A program made the position numbers and the translations under genes. From Halobacteria archaeon (GTDB taxonomy: Archaea > Halobacteriota > Syntropharchaeia > JACQPP01), in the NCBI GenBank assembly GCA_038869515.1, contig JAWCQZ010000003.1, forward strand, positions 126,884-190,883: a stretch of DNA of 64,000 nucleotides, given 5' to 3'. The notes under the pieces are model-generated. The model was not told the origin of the DNA. It saw only the letters and a program-made list of their open reading frames with translations, and did no database searches. Shown piece after piece: positions 20,733 through 55,584 of this stretch (its first letter is position 1; each line of letters begins with the position of its first letter).

Positions 20733-21011
20733 TTACGACTCCAAAAAGGCTTGGAGTTTCTTCCGCAACTCCTCGCGCTTCCTCTCTGCGTCGCGCTCCC
20801 CGGCCCGGGCGGCCTTCGCGGCCTCGACGACCGCGTCCGCGATGTCGGCGAGCCGCTGCCCCTCGTCGCGCTCGACCCGGGCGCGGATTTTCTCGTAGAG
20901 CAGCTCCCTCCGGGCCCAGTGAGCGAACGGGAGGAGCCGCGCCTCGGCGGCGTCCACGGGGTGGCCCGGGGAGCGGTCGAGTGTCACGGAACATGCGCCG
21001 TAGTGTGTCAT
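20733..21011 (-). CDS. Hypothetical protein
   Basis: 92 aa, strong codon-3 G+C, charged helical C-terminus; no family recognised. Confidence 0.4.
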   Translation of the reverse strand: MTHYGACSVTLDRSPGHPVDAAEARLLPFAHWARRELLYEKIRARVERDEGQRLADIADAVVEAAKAARAGERDAERKREELRKKLQAFLES

Positions 21012-21077: not shown

Positions 21078-21110
21078 GTCACAAGAATTTTCGCTGCGCG
21101 AAAATTCTTA
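21078..21110. repeat. 33-bp palindromic element GTCACAAGAATTTTCGCTGCGCGAAAATTCTTA (family 2, copy 1)
   Basis: Reverse complement of 47911-47943 with one mismatch; intergenic. Confidence 0.55.
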
Positions 21111-21137: not shown

Positions 21138-21659
21138 TCAGACCGGCTCGCCCGGACCGCGCGCGACCTGCCCGAAGAGCAGGTAGGCCGCCCGCACCGC
21201 CTCGCCCCATGCGCCTTCGCGTGCGAAAACCTCGATGGCGAGTTCCTCGGCCCCGAGCTGCAGGTCGACCCGGAACCCTCCGTCGGGCGAGGCCCACTGG
21301 AGGCGGGAGCCGTTGTCCCGGGTCCCCTGCCACCTCAGGGGGCCGACCCAGCGGCCCTGGAGGGACTCGGCCACCGCCTCGGGGGTCGTCCCGGGCGGCA
21401 GGCGCGCTTCGAGGACCTCGACTCCGGGGAGGTCGGACGGTTCGTCGATGGGGATGGCGCGGGAGCCGAGGCGGTAGCCCCTCTCGGTCCGCTCGATGTA
21501 TCCCGCCCGCTCCAGCCTCCGGAGGGTGCGGCTCAGGATTTCGGGGTGGAGGCCGAGGTGGCGCCGGAACCCCTGGAACGGGACCACCGCCCCCGGCTCG
21601 CCGAGGGTACGGAGGACCGCCTGCTCGCGGTCGGGGAGAGTGGTCAGGGAGGCCTCCAT
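21138..21659 (-). CDS. Winged-helix transcriptional regulator
   Basis: 173 aa; N-terminal wHTH (…LSRTLRRLERAGYIERTERGYRL…) plus C-terminal domain. Confidence 0.6.
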   Translation of the reverse strand: MEASLTTLPDREQAVLRTLGEPGAVVPFQGFRRHLGLHPEILSRTLRRLERAGYIERTERGYRLGSRAIPIDEPSDLPGVEVLEARLPPGTTPEAVAESLQGRWVGPLRWQGTRDNGSRLQWASPDGGFRVDLQLGAEELAIEVFAREGAWGEAVRAAYLLFGQVARGPGEPV

Positions 21660-34430: not shown

Positions 34431-34480
34431 GTGTGAATTCCAGGGGCCGGGGCTTTAAAAGGAAGAGGGATACCCTCCCC

Positions 34481-35238: not shown

Positions 35239-35268
35239 TTTTTTCGCGCTTGAAGAGTGCGAAAAAAA
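35239..35268 (+). terminator. Hairpin with flanking T/A runs immediately after the preceding stop codon
   Basis: TTTTTTCGC-GCTTGAAGAGT-GCGAAAAAAA; arms are reverse complements. Confidence 0.35.
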
Positions 35269-45937: not shown

Positions 45938-46678
45938 ATGAACCTCCGCTTCCTCACCCGCAGCGCTGTCCTCCCCCTCTCCATCGCCATCCTCGCCGCC
46001 TTCGCAGCGCAGGTCGCGTCGGATAGGTTCACCATCGCGGGGATGTTCATCCCGCAACTGGCGCTCGCGGAACCCTGGCGCTGGGTCACCTCCGCGTTCC
46101 TGCACGGCGGGTTCTACCACCTCTTCTTCAACCTCTTCGCCCTCTACCTCTTCGGCGTGGTGCTGGAGAACCAGATCGGCTCCCGCAAGGTGCTGGCGCT
46201 TTTCTTCGGGGGCGCCATCGCGGGGGACGTGGGCTACCTGGCGACGGGCGGGACCGCCCCCGCCCTGGGGGCCAGCGGGGCGGTCTACACCCTCATGGGG
46301 GCCCTGGCGGTCCTCCAGCCCCGCCTGCCCCTCTCCTTCTTCTTCGGCCCCCCTCTGCCCCTCATCGCCTGGGTGTTCATCTGGGCCGCCCTCGACGTCT
46401 TCCGCGTATTCACCCCCTCCACCATCGCCGGCGGCGCCCACCTGGGAGGCCTCGCCCTCGGCCTCTGGGCCGGGTTCTACTTCCGGCGGCCCCGGCAGCC
46501 GCGCCCCGCCGCCGAGGAGCGGGCCATCGTAGCCCCCAGGATGCGGGTGAAGGCTCCGCCCCGGGAGGGGGCGCGGTTCGAGTGCCGGAGGTGCGGCTAC
46601 GTCGCCACTCACTTCTCCGAAATCGAGTCCCCCAGGTGCCCCGGGTGCGGGGAGCCGACCGTCTGGCGTCCACTCTGA
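45938..46678 (+). CDS. Rhomboid-family intramembrane serine protease with C-terminal zinc ribbon
   Basis: 246 aa; GASGAVY catalytic-Ser motif, downstream His in a TM helix; C-terminal CxxC…CxxC. Confidence 0.8.
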   Translation: MNLRFLTRSAVLPLSIAILAAFAAQVASDRFTIAGMFIPQLALAEPWRWVTSAFLHGGFYHLFFNLFALYLFGVVLENQIGSRKVLALFFGGAIAGDVGYLATGGTAPALGASGAVYTLMGALAVLQPRLPLSFFFGPPLPLIAWVFIWAALDVFRVFTPSTIAGGAHLGGLALGLWAGFYFRRPRQPRPAAEERAIVAPRMRVKAPPREGARFECRRCGYVATHFSEIESPRCPGCGEPTVWRPL

Positions 46679-46736
46679 TTCGCCACTGGAGGAAGAGCGT
46701 GAGAAAGATTAAAAAGGGGCCCGCCTAGCCCCGCCC

Positions 46737-47840
46737 ATGGGCCTCGACCAGGTCGCCCTCTTCATTCTGCGCCCCCTGCTGGAGCTGCTCTCCTCGGTCG
46801 TCGCCTGGGTCGGGGGGGCGATCCCGCCCCTCTCGCCCCTCACCGACCGGGTTCTCGCCCTCCTCCAGCACCCCGACATGGTCCGCTTCCTCGTCCTCTT
46901 CGTCGTGGCCAACCTCCTCCTGGTCTACATGACGCTCACGGTGCTCGCCGTGACCTGGCTGGAGCGGAAACTCCTCGCGCGCCTCCAGGACCGCCGGGGC
47001 CCGATGCACGTCGGCAAGTTCGGCCTCCTCCAGCCCATCGCGGACATGTTCAAGTTCCTCGGCAAGGAGGACACCGTCCCCCGCAGCGCCGACCGGTTCC
47101 TCTTCACCCTGGCCGTCGTGGCCCTGCCCGCCATCGCCTTCACCGCGCTCGGGGTGGTCCCCATGGCGGAGGGATGGGTCCCGGTCCGGAGCGACGTGGC
47201 CCTGATTCTCGTCTTCGCCATCTTCTCCCTCGGACCCCTCTGGGTCTTCGTGGGGGGCTGGGCCGCCAACAACAAATACACCCTCCTCGGCGGGATGCGG
47301 GGCGCGGCGCAGATGATCGCCTACGAAATCCCCCTCATCCTGAGCACGGTCGGCATCGTCATCCTGGTCGGCTCCTTCAACGTGGTGGACATCGTGAAGG
47401 CGCAGGATTCCGTCTGGCTCGCCCTGCTGCAGCCCCTCGGCTTCTTCGTCTTCGCCGTCGGGATGATCGCCGAGGTGGAGCGGTTGCCTTTCGACATCCC
47501 CGAGGCGGAGGCGGAACTGGTGGCGGGCTGGAACACCGAGTACTCCGGCCTCAAGTTCGGCATGGCCCAGGTCGCCGAGTTCGCCCGGCTCTACATCGGC
47601 TCCGCCCTCCTCGTCCTCCTCTTCCTCGGCGGCTGGAACGGGCCCTTCCTCCACCCGGTCCTCTGGTTCCTCGTCAAGGTCTGGATCGTCATGGCGGTCG
47701 TGATGTGGGCCACCCGGGCCTCCTTCCCGCGGCTGCGGATGGACCAGTTGCTGAACGTCGGCTGGAAGCGGTTCCTGCCCCTCGCCATGGTGAACATCCT
47801 GATGGCGATGGCGGTGGTGTCGCTGGGGTGGCGACCGTGA
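46737..47840 (+). CDS. nuoH: NADH-quinone oxidoreductase subunit H
   Basis: 367 aa; …ERKLLARLQDRRGP… and conserved TM helices; A/T-rich TATA-like element upstream. Confidence 0.9.
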   Translation: MGLDQVALFILRPLLELLSSVVAWVGGAIPPLSPLTDRVLALLQHPDMVRFLVLFVVANLLLVYMTLTVLAVTWLERKLLARLQDRRGPMHVGKFGLLQPIADMFKFLGKEDTVPRSADRFLFTLAVVALPAIAFTALGVVPMAEGWVPVRSDVALILVFAIFSLGPLWVFVGGWAANNKYTLLGGMRGAAQMIAYEIPLILSTVGIVILVGSFNVVDIVKAQDSVWLALLQPLGFFVFAVGMIAEVERLPFDIPEAEAELVAGWNTEYSGLKFGMAQVAEFARLYIGSALLVLLFLGGWNGPFLHPVLWFLVKVWIVMAVVMWATRASFPRLRMDQLLNVGWKRFLPLAMVNILMAMAVVSLGWRP

Positions 47841-47979
47841 CAGAGCTCGCGCTCGCGCGAGCTCTGCGATGCCCCGGCCTGAAGGCCGGGACGTCCGCCG
47901 GCGGGCCTTTTAAGAATTTTCGCGCAGTGAAAATTCTTGTGACGGCAGACTTTTTAATCCCCATTCCCGATGTGTCGGG
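47841..47979. repeat. Hairpin-dense nuoH-nuoI spacer including a family-2 element
   Basis: Palindrome CAGAGCTCGCGCTCGCGCGAGCTCTG (47841-47866); CCGGCCTGAAGGCCGG (47874-47889); family-2 element TAAGAATTTTCGCGCAGTGAAAATTCTTGTGAC (47911-47943); TCCCGATGTGTCGGGA before the nuoI ATG. Confidence 0.55.
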
Positions 47980-48546
47980 ATGAAGCTCTCCGAGTTCCCC
48001 CAGTTGTTCGCCAGGCCCATGGCGGTCCCCCTCCGCTACCTCTTCCGGAGGCCCTTCACGGTCATCTACCCCTTCGAGCGCCTCGACCGGCCGGACATGA
48101 TGGCGGGCAAGCGGGGCATCGGCGCCCTGGGCGAGGAGAGCGCCTGGGTCCGGTGGCGGGGGAGGCCGGTCCTCGACCTCGATGAGTGCACCTCGTGCTA
48201 CATGTGCGCCGACAACTGCCCCGACAAGTGCATCACCATGGCCAAAATCGGGAGCCGGGAGTTCCCGGAGATCAACCTGGAGCGGTGCATGTTCTGCGAC
48301 ATCTGCTCGGAGGTCTGCCCCCGGGACTGCCTCTGGTTCAGTTCCGACTACAACCTGGCGGAGTTCGACAAGCGGAGCCTCTACTACGACACCCCGCGGA
48401 TGACCGGCCGGGGCCTCCTCGACATCGCCACCGCCGTCAGTCCGCAGGAGAGGCGGAAGCAGGCGCAGGCCGCGGCGAAGCCAGCCCCCAAGCCGGCGGC
48501 TCCGGGGGCCCCCGCGACGCCCGCCCCCGCCGCGCCCCAGTCATGA
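47980..48546 (+). CDS. nuoI: NADH-quinone oxidoreductase subunit I (2x[4Fe-4S] ferredoxin-type)
   Basis: 188 aa; CTSCYMCADNCP and CMFCDICSEVCP cluster motifs. Confidence 0.85.
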   Translation: MKLSEFPQLFARPMAVPLRYLFRRPFTVIYPFERLDRPDMMAGKRGIGALGEESAWVRWRGRPVLDLDECTSCYMCADNCPDKCITMAKIGSREFPEINLERCMFCDICSEVCPRDCLWFSSDYNLAEFDKRSLYYDTPRMTGRGLLDIATAVSPQERRKQAQAAAKPAPKPAAPGAPATPAPAAPQS

Positions 48547-48803
48547 GCCCCGAGCCCGCCGCGTGGCCCGAGGAGGCGAAGAAGAAAATCGAGGAGATTT
48601 CCAAGGAGTCCGGCTTCCCGGTTTCCACGCTGGTGAGCATGTTCAACGGCCTCTACCGGTCGGACTACATCCAGGAGAAACTGAGGGGGCGGGCGCCCGA
48701 CAAGGCGCTCGACTACATCGTCCGGCGGATGAAACTCCAGGTCCAGGAAATCAAGAAGGACCTGCCGGGGCACCTGTGGGCGCGGGCGGGGAAGGGCGAA
48801 TGA
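48543..48803 (+). CDS. Hypothetical protein coupled to nuoI
   Basis: 86 aa; ATG overlaps the nuoI stop (ATGA); good codon bias; no family recognised. Confidence 0.4.
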   Translation: MSPEPAAWPEEAKKKIEEISKESGFPVSTLVSMFNGLYRSDYIQEKLRGRAPDKALDYIVRRMKLQVQEIKKDLPGHLWARAGKGE

Positions 48804-54723: not shown

Positions 54724-54749
54724 ATATCACATCTCTCACTCTTCTCTGG
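54724..54749. repeat. 26-bp motif ATATCACATCTCTCACTCTTCTCTGG (copy 2 of 2)
   Basis: Matches 8942-8967 at 25 of 26 positions; overlaps the last codons and stop of the substrate-binding-protein gene and the spacer before the permease gene. Confidence 0.5.
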
Positions 54750-55584
54750 CATATCGAAACGGCCTGAACAGCCCATCTCCGAACGCCCCCACCATCCCCA
54801 GACCCCTCTCCGACAGCAGCCACTCGGCGAACGCCTTCGCCGGGGCGTGGTTCTTCCCGGGGAACCGGGTCTCGTTCAGCAGCAGGACGCTGTAGGTGTT
54901 CAGGAATGCGGGCTCGTCCCCGGGATTGAGCACGTCAAGGTCCAGCCGGCCCCTGTAGGAGCGATAGGTCCCCTCGTCGGTGAGCGTGTAGGCCCCGAGT
55001 TCGAAGGCCTTCTGGAGCGTCGCCCCCATCCCCGCACCCGCCGAGAGGTACCAGGCGTTGGAGGGGACGGAAATCTCCGTCGTGTAGTTGTATCCTGCCC
55101 CCTTCCAGAGCAACTGCTCCCGGGCGTGGGTGCCGGACCGGTCGCCCCGGGATACGAAGGTGGCGTTCCGGTCGTGGATGGCCCGGAAGGTCCCTGCGGC
55201 GTCGAGGCCCCGGACTCCGGCCGGGTCGGCGGGCGGCCCGACCACCTGGAAGCGGTTGGTGGCGAAGGGGGTCCGCGTGAAGTATCCCTCGGCGACCATC
55301 GCCAGTTCCAAATCAGGGTCGTGGGTGAGGGCCATATCCACGTCGCCCCGGCGCGCCAGTTCGATCGCCTGGCCCGAGCCCACCGGGATGAAATACATCC
55401 GGGTCCCGGTCTCGCGGGTGAAGTTCGAGGCGAGGGAATCGAGGAGCCCCGTGTGGACGAGGCTCGTGGTGGTGGAGGCGAGGAGCGGGGGGGGCGGGCC
55501 GAGGGGGCGGAGAATGGGGACCAGAAGCAGCGCCAGCAGGAGGCCCCCCAGGAGAGCCCAGTGCAAAGTCCGGGAAACGCGCAT
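54736..55584 (-). CDS. ABC transporter substrate-binding protein (tungstate/molybdate TupA/WtpA-like)
   Basis: 282 aa; signal anchor; periplasmic-binding-protein fold motifs; first gene of a three-gene ABC operon. Confidence 0.7.
   Translation of the reverse strand: MRVSRTLHWALLGGLLLALLLVPILRPLGPPPPLLASTTTSLVHTGLLDSLASNFTRETGTRMYFIPVGSGQAIELARRGDVDMALTHDPDLELAMVAEGYFTRTPFATNRFQVVGPPADPAGVRGLDAAGTFRAIHDRNATFVSRGDRSGTHAREQLLWKGAGYNYTTEISVPSNAWYLSAGAGMGATLQKAFELGAYTLTDEGTYRSYRGRLDLDVLNPGDEPAFLNTYSVLLLNETRFPGKNHAPAKAFAEWLLSERGLGMVGAFGDGLFRPFRYAREE

What the first reader, a model, noticed from the sequence alone, without database searches (positions are those of the whole stretch)
47841..47979. 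Hairpin-dense spacer inside the nuo cluster carrying a 33-bp family-2 element also found at 21078-21110
The 139-bp nuoH-nuoI spacer consists almost entirely of four hairpins, including TAAGAATTTTCGCGCAGTGAAAATTCTTGTGAC, which is the reverse complement of 21078-21110 with one mismatch. A near-identical 33-mer at two unrelated loci, one inside an operon, suggests a mobile miniature element or a conserved RNA processing or attenuation structure splitting nuoH from nuoI.
Basis: seen in the sequence. Interest (0 to 1): 0.55.

Follow-up and report, generated by a model that had tools for sequence, protein, structure and literature searches.

The report
Lineage-specific hairpin insert before nuoI promoter
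The hairpin-rich gap between nuoH and nuoI in this uncultured archaeon is a recent ~100-base insertion, carrying a duplicated 33-base palindrome, that sits in front of a conserved nuoI promoter, so it is most likely an ordinary gene boundary and not a conserved RNA-processing signal.

Summary
The 139-nt nuoH-nuoI spacer folds far better than shuffles (z -4.8). The 33-mer at 47911-47943 recurs, reverse-complemented with one mismatch, at 21078-21110, where none is expected by chance.

It is neither conserved nor widespread. Five related genomes lack the hairpin part at this site. Four related loci lack the 33-mer at the second site. Scans of the GTDB genome, JGI metagenome and IMG/VR viral collections found only chance matches. 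About 73 kb of this genome holds just the two copies and no transposase.

What is conserved is TTTTTAA(N), 21-23 nt before the nuoI ATG. About 14 other first-in-unit genes in the window show the same TATA geometry. nuoI with the downstream 86-codon ORF is therefore most likely its own leaderless transcription unit.

The window-specific 102 nt (47842-47943) are bracketed by a 5-bp direct repeat, GTGAC. The matching empty site reads GTGAC|GGAGG in a relative. The insert supplies TTTT-AAGAA-TTTT, a two-U4 archaeal terminator-type signal, downstream of nuoH.

Best reading: a young duplicative insertion that forms a terminator-promoter boundary. Whether it is a PATE-, SMR- or REP-like mobile repeat or a microhomology-templated copy could not be decided. 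Interest is low to moderate.

The parts
46737..47840 (+). nuoH (367 aa), with its own TATA-like box GATTAAAAAG 46707-46716 about 25 nt upstream of its ATG
   Evidence: Pfam NADHdh, E 1e-108. Upstream sequence.
47837..47841 (+). Left copy of the GTGAC direct repeat. It contains the nuoH stop codon TGA and is ancestral, because relative L036 reads ccGTGAC|GGAGGTTTTTAA.
47842..47943 (+). Window-specific 102-nt insertion: hp1, hp2, a weak GC palindrome, the T4 tracts and the 33-mer, ending in the right GTGAC copy. It is absent from five related genomes.
   Evidence: Alignment A4. Spacers of the relatives.
47841..47866 (+). hp1, a perfect 11-bp stem with a 4-nt loop: CAGAGCTCGCG-CTCG-CGCGAGCTCTG. 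It is the best non-self hit of the 33-mer covariance model (16.7 bits, E 0.13, minus strand).
47868..47895 (+). hp2, a GC-rich hairpin: GAUG.CCCGGCC-UGAA-GGCCGGG.CGUC (-19.1 kcal/mol).
47908..47920 (+). TTTT-AAGAA-TTTT, two U4 tracts 68-80 nt after the nuoH stop, read as a candidate archaeal terminator signal. It is one of only five double-T4 sites in the window, and two of the other four also lie just downstream of stop codons.
   Evidence: U4-tract terminators are described in PMC8716108.
47911..47943 (+). 33-mer copy 1: T + AAGAATTTTCGC-GCA-GTGAAAATTCTT + GTGAC. The single difference from copy 2 (C to T at 47928) keeps a G:U pair on the sense strand only (-12.1 kcal/mol against -8.3 antisense).
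47951..47958 (+). TATA box TTTTTAAT, 21 nt before the nuoI ATG. It is conserved as TTTTTAA(N), 21-23 nt before the ATG, in L035, L036, L039 and L093. The geometry matches about 14 other genes in the window.
47965..47980 (+). hp5, a small 6-bp hairpin between the TATA box and the ATG. It is not conserved in relatives.
47980..48803 (+). nuoI (188 aa, 47980-48546) and the overlapping conserved 86-codon ORF (48543-48803), read as a predicted leaderless transcription unit. There is no in-frame upstream start codon and no SD-like sequence before the ATG.
21078..21110 (-). 33-mer copy 2, with a perfect 12-bp stem and 3-nt loop. It lies 27 nt after the stop of a MarR-type gene and 66 nt before a 92-codon ORF that has an SD sequence, GGAGGTGA. 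It occupies the place where relatives L087 and L085 have an AT-rich TATA-like segment followed by the same GTGA(C/G)CGG.
21138..21659 (-). MarR-family gene upstream of copy 2. It has its own leaderless promoter, TATTTATAT at 21689-21681, with a separate palindrome CACTAACCTAAAGTTAGTG.
20733..21011 (-). Conserved 92-aa ORF of unknown function downstream of copy 2.

Best explanation
The nuoH-nuoI spacer is a composite gene boundary with two layers.

(1) A conserved archaeal promoter (shown by comparison). A TATA box, TTTTTAAT at 47951-47958, lies 21 nt before the nuoI ATG. This makes nuoI plus the downstream 86-codon ORF a separate, leaderless transcription unit.

(2) A lineage-specific 102-nt insertion, 47842-47943 (shown). 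It lies between the nuoH stop codon and that promoter. It is bracketed by the direct repeat GTGAC. It consists of two perfect or near-perfect GC-rich hairpins, a short GC palindrome, and an AT-rich perfect palindrome that has one near-identical copy 26.8 kb away.

Origin (inferred): the 33-mer is a young copy-and-paste product. Either it moved as a small transposase-free palindromic repeat, like haloarchaeal PATE or SMR elements, or it was copied during repair using GTGAC microhomology. GTGAC is ancestral at both loci.

Function (inferred): together with the TTTT on its left, the sense-strand TTTT of the 33-mer forms a two-U4 tract. This is the kind of signal archaeal RNA polymerase and aCPSF1 use to terminate. 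The insert would therefore terminate or insulate nuoH transcription, and the stable hairpins could protect the 3' end, before the nuoI promoter fires. It is not an RNA-processing or attenuation site within a polycistronic nuo mRNA.
For: Promoter layer:
- TTTTTAA(N) lies 21-23 nt before the nuoI ATG in the window and in four genomes about 88% identical to it, while the rest of the spacer is unalignable.
- The same TATA position, -32 to -23, occurs before about 14 first-in-unit genes (S15, nuoA, rhomboid, nuoH, FKBP and others). It is missing before the internal genes nuoB, nuoC, nuoD and orf86.
- nuoI has no upstream in-frame start codon and no SD-like sequence.

Insertion layer:
- Spacers in relatives are 34, 37 and 43 nt, or overlapping genes. 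One relative (L039) has an unrelated 75-nt insert at the same point.
- GTGAC occurs at 47837-47841 and 47939-47943. The empty site in L036 reads GTGAC|GGAGGTTTTTAA, against the window's GTGAC[...]GTGAC|GGCAGACTTTTTAA.
- The chance of a 5-nt junction repeat is about 1 in 1000.

Duplicate:
- The copies are 32/33 identical, with no match expected by chance, and the flanks are unrelated.

Terminator reading:
- T4+ runs lie within 120 nt downstream of about half of the genes that are followed by a gap. Only about 10% of random positions have one within 100 nt.
- Only five double-T4 sites exist in 64 kb. Three of them sit just after stop codons, including this one.
- Two U4 tracts are the minimal efficient aCPSF1-dependent terminator in Methanococcus maripaludis (PMC8716108).
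- Both copies lie downstream of a gene, in the same orientation relative to it. The one substitution keeps pairing only on the sense strand.
- A third AT-rich hairpin, T6-stem-loop-A7 at 35239-35267, sits 2 nt after another stop codon.
Against: - There are no expression data. The terminator and promoter roles rest on sequence geometry and on analogy with other archaea.
- Copy 2 has only one U4 tract on the sense strand.
- Copy 2 occupies the place of the neighbouring gene's TATA box in relatives. That fits a promoter or operator role at least as well as a terminator role.
- Relatives manage without the insert, so it may be neutral.
- The orientation and G:U arguments rest on two copies and one substitution (roughly p 0.5 and p 0.15).
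- The origin is undecided. hp1-hp3 have no second copy in the sequence available, so it is unclear whether the mobile unit is the 102-nt block or the 33-mer.
Confidence: 0.45

Rival explanations
1. The 33-mer, or the whole 102-nt block with palindromes at both ends, belongs to an active family of transposase-free mobile repeats (PATE-, SMR-, MITE- or REP/REPIN-like). The family would have many more copies elsewhere in the genome and a preference for GTGAC targets. Any regulatory effect would be a by-product.
For: - The insertion is absent at the orthologous site in five relatives.
- A 5-bp direct repeat, GTGAC, flanks the insert, with a matching empty site. At locus 2 the flanks read GTGAa...GTGAC.
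- Palindromes sit at both ends of the block, and hp1 is the best non-self hit of the 33-mer model.
- The genome carries at least one other short hairpin repeat family, with three copies in the window.
- Transposase-free palindromic repeats are abundant in Haloquadratum (PMC3119063).
- Two independent Logan assemblies break at 47903, inside the spacer. Repeats or insertion polymorphism could cause that.
Against: - Only two copies occur in about 73 kb, and none in about 90 kb of related genomes.
- Public genome, metagenome and viral scans gave no related hit.
- No transposase or integrase appears among the annotated genes of the window and its flanks.
- hp1-hp3 are single-copy.
- At locus 2, GTGAC is ancestral and the element replaces about 20 nt of promoter, so it is not a clean insertion.
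- The GTAG and CGTC tags that define REPs are absent. RAYT-type Y1 enzymes were not found in archaea (PMC6006769).
- The spacing between hairpin and end does not match IS608-type ends (from my own knowledge of IS608).
Confidence: 0.27
2. The palindrome is the operator of a dimeric transcription factor that co-regulates nuoI and the 92-aa ORF. At nuoI it lies just upstream of BRE/TATA. At the other gene it overlaps the promoter.
For: - It is a perfect dyad. At nuoI the dyad centre is about 30 bp upstream of the TATA centre.
- At locus 2 it sits where relatives have the TATA region.
- A MarR-type regulator gene lies next to copy 2.
- Other promoters in the window carry operator-like palindromes.
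Against: - 32/33 identity that includes the loop and the asymmetric flank is not what independently evolved binding sites look like.
- No weaker sites were found in 64 kb with the model.
- The MarR gene has a different palindrome in its own promoter.
- Relatives keep both promoters without the element.
Confidence: 0.08
3. The hairpins act within a polycistronic nuoH-nuoI transcript as a processing, attenuation or 3'-stabilising structure that sets the nuoH:nuoI ratio, as REP or BIME elements do within bacterial operons.
For: - The predicted structure is very stable (z -4.8).
- The substitution preserves pairing on the sense strand only.
- A different hairpin-rich insert occupies the same site in L039. 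That hints at selection for structure after nuoH.
Against: - The structure is not conserved in four of five relatives.
- nuoI has its own conserved TATA box at the leaderless distance and no SD sequence. A read-through transcript would therefore present nuoI poorly for translation.
- Rfam gave nothing near threshold.
Confidence: 0.1
4. The repeat is an assembly or binning artefact, or a chance repeat.
For: Contigs break at 47903 in two Logan assemblies.
Against: - The identical spacer is present in the NCBI MAG contig and in two independent Logan assemblies.
- The proteins flanking both copies are recorded in three MAGs.
- The chance expectation is 0.00.
Confidence: 0.02

Closest known systems
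Archaeal leaderless promoter plus U-tract terminator boundary (TATA box at about -26; U4-tract/aCPSF1 termination, PMC8716108)
   Same: A TATA-like octamer lies 21-23 nt before the ATG and is conserved across species. Two U4 tracts follow the upstream gene. The same geometry occurs at many other genes in the window.
   Different: The U-tracts come from a recent insertion and are embedded in a perfect palindrome. There is no experimental mapping. Archaeal termination does not need hairpins, so the four stems go beyond the known signal.
Haloarchaeal transposase-free repeats: PATEs, SMRs and MITEs of Haloquadratum walsbyi (PMC3119063)
   Same: A roughly 100-nt non-coding insert with palindromes close to both ends and no long terminal inverted repeat. 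It is present in one lineage and absent at the same site in relatives. NCBI labels the host 'Halobacteria archaeon'.
   Different: PATEs and SMRs cause no target duplication and occur in tens to hundreds of copies. Here a 5-bp direct repeat flanks the insert, only the 33-mer is repeated (twice), and no IS605-type element is in view.
Bacterial REP, BIME and REPIN elements with RAYT transposases (PMC2817692, PMC3116915, PMC3733652)
   Same: A 20-40 bp palindrome with a short asymmetric tag at one end, lying in intergenic DNA downstream of genes and inside gene clusters. Two palindromes lie close together. REPs are credited with terminator or mRNA-stabilising roles.
   Different: REPs carry GTAG or CGTC tags and usually exceed 100 copies per genome. 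RAYT-type enzymes were not found in archaea (PMC6006769). Here the tag is GTGAC and only two copies are known.
Microhomology-templated insertions, or fold-back (template-switch) formation of perfect palindromes
   Same: The donor and recipient sites share the 5-nt GTGAC at the junction. The insert is a patchwork of perfect palindromes. At locus 2 the right arm and GTGAC look partly ancestral (CGAAAATT...TCTGTGAC in L087).
   Different: This is a mutational process, not a defined element family, and it cannot be demonstrated from two copies.

Membership tests
REP/REPIN (RAYT-associated) | Short (20-40 bp) imperfect palindrome in extragenic DNA | tested here: met
   A 27-bp dyad within a 33-bp conserved unit. 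Both copies are intergenic.
REP/REPIN (RAYT-associated) | GTAG or CGTC tetranucleotide tag at one end (PMC3733652) | tested here: not met
   The ends are T... and ...GTGAC, with no GTAG or CGTC.
REP/REPIN (RAYT-associated) | High copy number (typically more than 100 per genome) | tested here: inconclusive
   Two copies in about 73 kb of the genome. The rest of the genome could not be reached.
REP/REPIN (RAYT-associated) | Cognate RAYT (Y1 HUH) gene in the genome | not testable with these tools
   None is among the annotated genes of the window and its flanks. RAYT classes are not known from archaea.
PATE (IS200/IS605-derived, PMC3119063) | Near-terminal palindromes at both ends, similar to each other, and no terminal inverted repeat | tested here: inconclusive
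   hp1 and the 33-mer hairpin lie at the two ends of the 102-nt insert. Their similarity is weak (16.7 bits, E 0.13).
PATE (IS200/IS605-derived, PMC3119063) | No target duplication, and insertion next to a conserved terminal or target oligonucleotide | tested here: inconclusive
   GTGAC occurs on both sides. This can be read as a 5-bp duplication (against membership) or as a target plus an identical terminal oligonucleotide (for membership).
PATE (IS200/IS605-derived, PMC3119063) | Related IS605-type transposon (tnpA/tnpB) with matching end palindromes in the genome | not testable with these tools
   None in about 73 kb. The genome-wide search was impossible.
MITE | Terminal inverted repeats matching a transposon, plus target-site duplication, in multiple copies | tested here: inconclusive
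   A 5-bp direct repeat is present. The ends match in only 7 of 11 positions (AGAGCTCGCGC against AGAATTTTCGC). The full block is single-copy.
Archaeal TATA/leaderless promoter | AT-rich octamer centred about 26 nt upstream of the start, with an ATG at or near the transcription start and no SD sequence | tested here: met
   TTTTTAAT at 47951-47958 with the ATG at 47980. It is conserved in four relatives, and about 14 other genes show the same geometry.
Archaeal U-tract terminator (aCPSF1-dependent) | One or more U4+ tracts shortly downstream of the stop codon, and 3' ends mapped there | tested here: inconclusive
   The sequence feature is met (two U4 tracts 68-80 nt after the stop). 3' ends cannot be mapped with these tools.
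CRISPR repeat | Regularly spaced direct repeats with unique spacers | tested here: not met
   The two copies are isolated, inverted and 26.8 kb apart. The Rfam CRISPR-DR hits elsewhere in the spacer are far below threshold, and none overlaps the 33-mer.

The most novel reading that the evidence does not exclude
The 33-mer and the 102-nt block could be members of an undescribed family of transposase-free palindromic repeats in a non-halophilic, hot-spring 'Halobacteria-related' archaeon. Such a family would target GTGAC and deliver ready-made AT-rich terminator or promoter modules into a 70% GC genome, breaking operons such as nuo into separate leaderless units. That would be an archaeal counterpart of REP/REPIN elements without a known RAYT.
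Probability: 0.12. Interest if true: 0.5.

Novelty: new member of a known kind. Interest (0 to 1): 0.2.

Why it matters
If the reading is right, an apparently odd 'structured spacer inside an operon' has an ordinary explanation. In this archaeon the nuo cluster is already split into several leaderless transcription units. Small, recently acquired palindromic inserts sit at the boundaries and may supply termination signals.

This has modest value for annotating promoters, terminators and small repeats in uncultured high-GC archaea. The finding would become more interesting only if a genome-wide census showed a real mobile family that seeds regulatory signals.

Tried and rejected
- **Collection scans.** I scanned the GTDB species genomes, the JGI metagenomes and IMG/VR for AAGAATTTTC-N7-GAAAATTCTT. 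All hits were in AT-rich bacteria, or in an unrelated Chloroflexaceae long-hairpin repeat that shares TCACAAAGAATTTTCAC. I treat that as coincidence. The window's own genome is not in either collection, so a genome-wide census was impossible.
- **Covariance model.** A model of the 33-mer was run with filters off over the window, about 9 kb of extra contig and about 90 kb of relatives. No further copy appeared.
- **Half-sites and GTSAC-plus-hairpin.** Searches for these gave nothing beyond the known sites.
- **BLAST.** blastn-short of the whole spacer showed that hp1-hp3 are single-copy. Plasmid and phage BLAST gave only chance GC-rich hits.
- **Rfam.** Gathering and E-value modes found only a tRNA elsewhere, and sub-threshold noise in the spacer.
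- **Bacterial scan.** The sigma-70 and intrinsic-terminator scan was not informative for an archaeon.
- **Readings rejected.** A CRISPR repeat, a replication-origin ORB box, a dif or att site, and a riboswitch or attenuator were considered and rejected on copy arrangement, position and lack of conservation.
- **26.8-kb mobile or invertible segment.** The idea that the two inverted copies bound such a segment was rejected. The interval holds core genes (tRNA-splicing endonuclease, IMP dehydrogenase, aspartate carbamoyltransferase, ribosomal protein S15, nuoA-H), and gene order matches the relatives.
- **Longer contig.** Attempts to reach the 257.8-kb contig of a sister MAG returned only the same 84.6-kb contig.

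Full report
**Source and setting**

The window has about 70% G+C. It matches contig JAWCRK010000003.1 of MAG GCA_038869275.1 at 99.96-99.99% and two Logan assemblies at 100%. NCBI labels the organism 'Halobacteria archaeon', and the same proteins occur in three MAGs. The gene content is archaeal: tRNA-splicing endonuclease, the chromatin protein MC1, FpoO and F420-related enzymes.

Around the finding the gene order is nuoA-B-C-D, a rhomboid protease gene, nuoH (46737-47840), the 139-nt spacer, nuoI (47980-48546) and an overlapping conserved 86-codon ORF. Convergent genes follow, so the nuo cluster ends at nuoI.

**Check of the observation**

The spacer folds to -69.4 kcal/mol. Shuffled sequences average -49.7 +/- 4.1, giving z -4.8. 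The helices are:
- 47841-47866: 11 perfect pairs.
- 47868-47895.
- 47911-47939: the 33-mer hairpin.
- 47965-47980.
- A weak CCGCCGGCGG palindrome at 47895-47904.

Two of the roughly twelve strongest perfect hairpins in the 64-kb window lie in this spacer.

The 33-mer at 47911-47943 matches 21078-21110 on the minus strand at 32 of 33 positions. No match is expected by chance, and no third copy exists even at 3 mismatches. Identity ends exactly at the 33-mer borders.

The core is a perfect dyad, AAGAATTTTCGC-GCA-GCGAAAATTCTT. It has an asymmetric conserved T on one side and GTGAC on the other. The single difference (C to T) leaves a G:U pair on the sense strand only: -12.1 kcal/mol against -8.3 for the antisense strand.

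**What is conserved: a promoter**

I retrieved the nuoH-nuoI junction from five related genomes. Four of them are about 88% identical to the window in coding DNA, so they are different species of one genus-level group. The spacers are:
- 34 nt in L035.
- 37 nt in L036.
- 43 nt in L093.
- 112 nt in L039, which has an unrelated 75-nt insert directly after the stop codon.
- Overlapping genes in the more distant L040.

The only shared element is TTTTTAA(N), 21-23 nt before the nuoI ATG.

In the window, an AT-rich box at -32 to -23 from the ATG precedes about 14 first-in-unit genes, including S15, nuoA, rhomboid, nuoH, FKBP, the AMP-ligase gene and L15. It is absent before nuoB, nuoC, nuoD and the 86-codon ORF. 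The MarR-type gene and the MC1 gene show the same pattern.

This is the classical archaeal TATA position for leaderless mRNAs (established knowledge). nuoI has no alternative in-frame start and no SD-like sequence.

I conclude, by inference from conserved geometry, that nuoI and the 86-codon ORF form their own leaderless unit. The cluster would then be organised as nuoABCD | rhomboid | nuoH | nuoI-orf86. The 33-mer therefore lies upstream of the predicted nuoI transcript. It can be RNA only as part of a nuoH 3' extension.

**What is not conserved: the hairpins**

Aligned against the relatives, the window carries 102 extra nucleotides, 47842-47943. GTGAC occurs at 47837-47841, where it includes the nuoH stop codon, and again at 47939-47943. 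L036 reads ccGTGAC|GGAGGTTTTTAA, where the window reads ccGTGAC[...TTCTTGTGAC]GGCAGACTTTTTAA.

A 5-nt junction repeat has a chance probability of about 1 in 1000. It points to a target-site duplication, to insertion next to a target pentanucleotide, or to microhomology-mediated copying.

Only the 33-mer part of the insert has a second copy. hp1-hp3 are unique in all the sequence I could reach. The best non-self hit of a covariance model built from the two 33-mers is hp1 of the same spacer (16.7 bits, E 0.13). The two terminal palindromes may therefore be distantly alike, but this is not significant on its own.

**The second locus**

Copy 2 lies 27 nt after the stop of a MarR-type gene (21138-21659, minus strand). 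It is 66 nt before a conserved 92-aa ORF that has an SD sequence. It has the same orientation relative to transcription as copy 1.

In L087 the orthologous spacer has an AT-rich TATA-like palindrome, TTCGAAAATTTATATTTTCT, at that place. It is followed by the same GTGACCGG and a well conserved 5' leader. L085 has TTTTAAAC...TGTGAGCGG. L086 and L094 have different downstream sequence.

So GTGAC is ancestral at locus 2 as well. There the element replaces about 20 nt of promoter DNA with 34 nt, which is not a clean insertion. Part of the right arm (CGAAAATT...TCTGTGAC) may even be ancestral there. That would make locus 2 the donor and the nuo spacer the recipient. The direction cannot be proven.

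**Copy number and distribution**

Scans of the GTDB species genomes, the JGI metagenomes and IMG/VR for the dyad returned 31, 44 and 0 stretches. None came from a relative of this archaeon. The model found nothing in about 9 kb of additional contig or in about 90 kb from relatives. That leaves two copies in about 73 kb.

No transposase, integrase or IS-related protein occurs among the annotated genes of the window and its flanks. The rest of the genome could not be reached with the tools. A true genome-wide census, which is the decisive test, remains open.

**How it most likely works**

T4+ runs are rare in this genome: 69 on the plus strand and 79 on the minus strand in 64 kb. They are enriched downstream of genes that are followed by a gap. 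About half of those genes have one within 120 nt, while about 10% of random positions have one within 100 nt.

Only five double-T4 sites exist in the window. Three lie just after stop codons, and one of these is TTTTAAGAATTTT at 47908-47920.

In Methanococcus maripaludis, U4 tracts are the terminator signal. Two U4 tracts are the minimal efficient element for the termination factor aCPSF1 (PMC8716108).

The insert therefore gives nuoH a terminator-type signal that the short spacers of the relatives lack. In those relatives the only T-run is the TATA box itself. A third AT-rich hairpin (T6...A7, 35239-35267) sits 2 nt after the stop of another gene. That fits a general use of AT-rich dyads at gene ends.

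The hairpins could also protect the nuoH 3' end. This functional layer is inference, and the insert may equally be neutral.

**Comparison with known systems**

- **REP/REPIN elements.** These share the size, the palindrome, an asymmetric tag and the position. They are defined by GTAG or CGTC tags and high copy number (PMC3733652). Their RAYT enzymes were not found in archaea (PMC6006769). The tag test fails here.
- **Haloquadratum PATEs and SMRs.** These are transposase-free repeats with near-terminal palindromes, and some are about 110 bp long (PMC3119063). They are the closest archaeal analogues to the 102-nt block. However, they cause no target duplication and are multi-copy, so membership is inconclusive.
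- **Operator reading.** This is disfavoured. The loop and the flank are conserved, and there are no weaker sites.
- **RNA-processing reading.** This is disfavoured by the lack of conservation and by the promoter.

**Verdict**

The feature is real, but it is an ordinary kind of thing. It is a young, lineage-specific palindromic insertion at a terminator-promoter boundary, and it carries one duplicated 33-bp palindrome of undecided origin. Interest is low to moderate (0.2). It would rise only if a census revealed a genuine archaeal REP- or PATE-like family that seeds regulatory signals.

Noticed in passing
Copies 1 and 3 lie between convergent genes, where terminators are expected. Copy 2 overlaps the first 17 codons of a TatD-like gene whose ATG (34430, minus strand) has a TATA box at the leaderless distance.
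   Followed up: partly
L088 15108-17898 (JAWCRK010000003.1, about 2-5 kb beyond window position 1): A copper membrane monooxygenase-like cluster (Pfam Monooxygenase_B, AMO and AmoC) lies on the same contig as FpoO, F420-dependent MTD and MC1. A CuMMO in a 'Halobacteria archaeon' hot-spring MAG looks unusual and may deserve its own study.
   Followed up: no
window 8943-8971 and 54724-54752: A 29-nt direct repeat, ATATCACATCTCTCACTCTTyTCTGG (93% identical), lies at two loci. One copy sits at the 3' end of the phosphate-binding-protein gene (54736-55584, minus strand).
   Followed up: no
window 45938-46678: A rhomboid protease gene with its own TATA box is inserted between nuoD and nuoH. It is also present in L036 and L037 but absent in the more distant L040. 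nuoJKLMN do not follow nuoI here, although in L040 they lie about 1.2 kb downstream. The complex I-like cluster is fragmented in this lineage.
   Followed up: partly
window 34453-34462: A single palindromic TATA box, CTTTAAAAGG, lies at the leaderless distance from two divergent start codons: 34430 (minus strand, TatD-like) and 34481 (plus strand, a membrane-anchored wHTH protein with DUF7343). This would be a shared bidirectional promoter.
   Followed up: no
window 35239-35267: An AT-rich hairpin, TTTTTTCGC-11 nt-GCGAAAAAA, sits 2 nt after a stop codon, giving T6 on one strand and T7 on the other. It looks like a bidirectional U-tract terminator and shares the TTTTCGC/GCGAAAA motif with the 33-mer.
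   Followed up: partly
L008, L014, L032, L045, L056-L060, L066, L068, L070-L072, L079-L081: A multi-copy long-hairpin repeat of about 75 nt occurs in a Chloroflexaceae MAG and in metagenome JGI12109J20283: ATGGKACTCTTTTGTCTTTTTCACAAAGAATTTTCACGAAGTGAAAATTCTTTGTGAAAAAGACAGGAATCTTCCGC. Its core, TCACAAAGAATTTTCAC, resembles the archaeal 33-mer. This is probably coincidence.
   Followed up: partly
L002 and L003 (window 47903 onward): Two independent Logan assemblies (SRR27730036 and SRR27730035) both start a contig at window position 47903, 8 nt before the 33-mer. The cause could be a coverage drop at the GC hairpins, a repeat, or insertion polymorphism in the population.
   Followed up: no
window 13084-37980 (region not covered by fetched loci): Coordinate bookkeeping shows that JAWCRK010000003.1 has a net 25 nt more than the window somewhere in this interval, and the two also differ by a few SNPs. 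The window therefore comes from a sister assembly of the same population. The indel was not located.
   Followed up: no
L085 11050-11200: Upstream of the 92-aa ORF in relative GCA_964486625.1 there is a SnoaL-family gene inserted on the opposite strand. There is also an approximately 35-nt imperfect direct repeat, cgacgagacgagagagtttccgagaggaccggc / cgacgacgggacgagagggtttccgagtggaacggc.
   Followed up: no
L039 1822-1896: An independent, unrelated hairpin-containing 75-nt insert lies directly after the nuoH stop codon in another species. The nuoH stop/nuoI promoter junction seems to be a hotspot for small insertions.
   Followed up: partly
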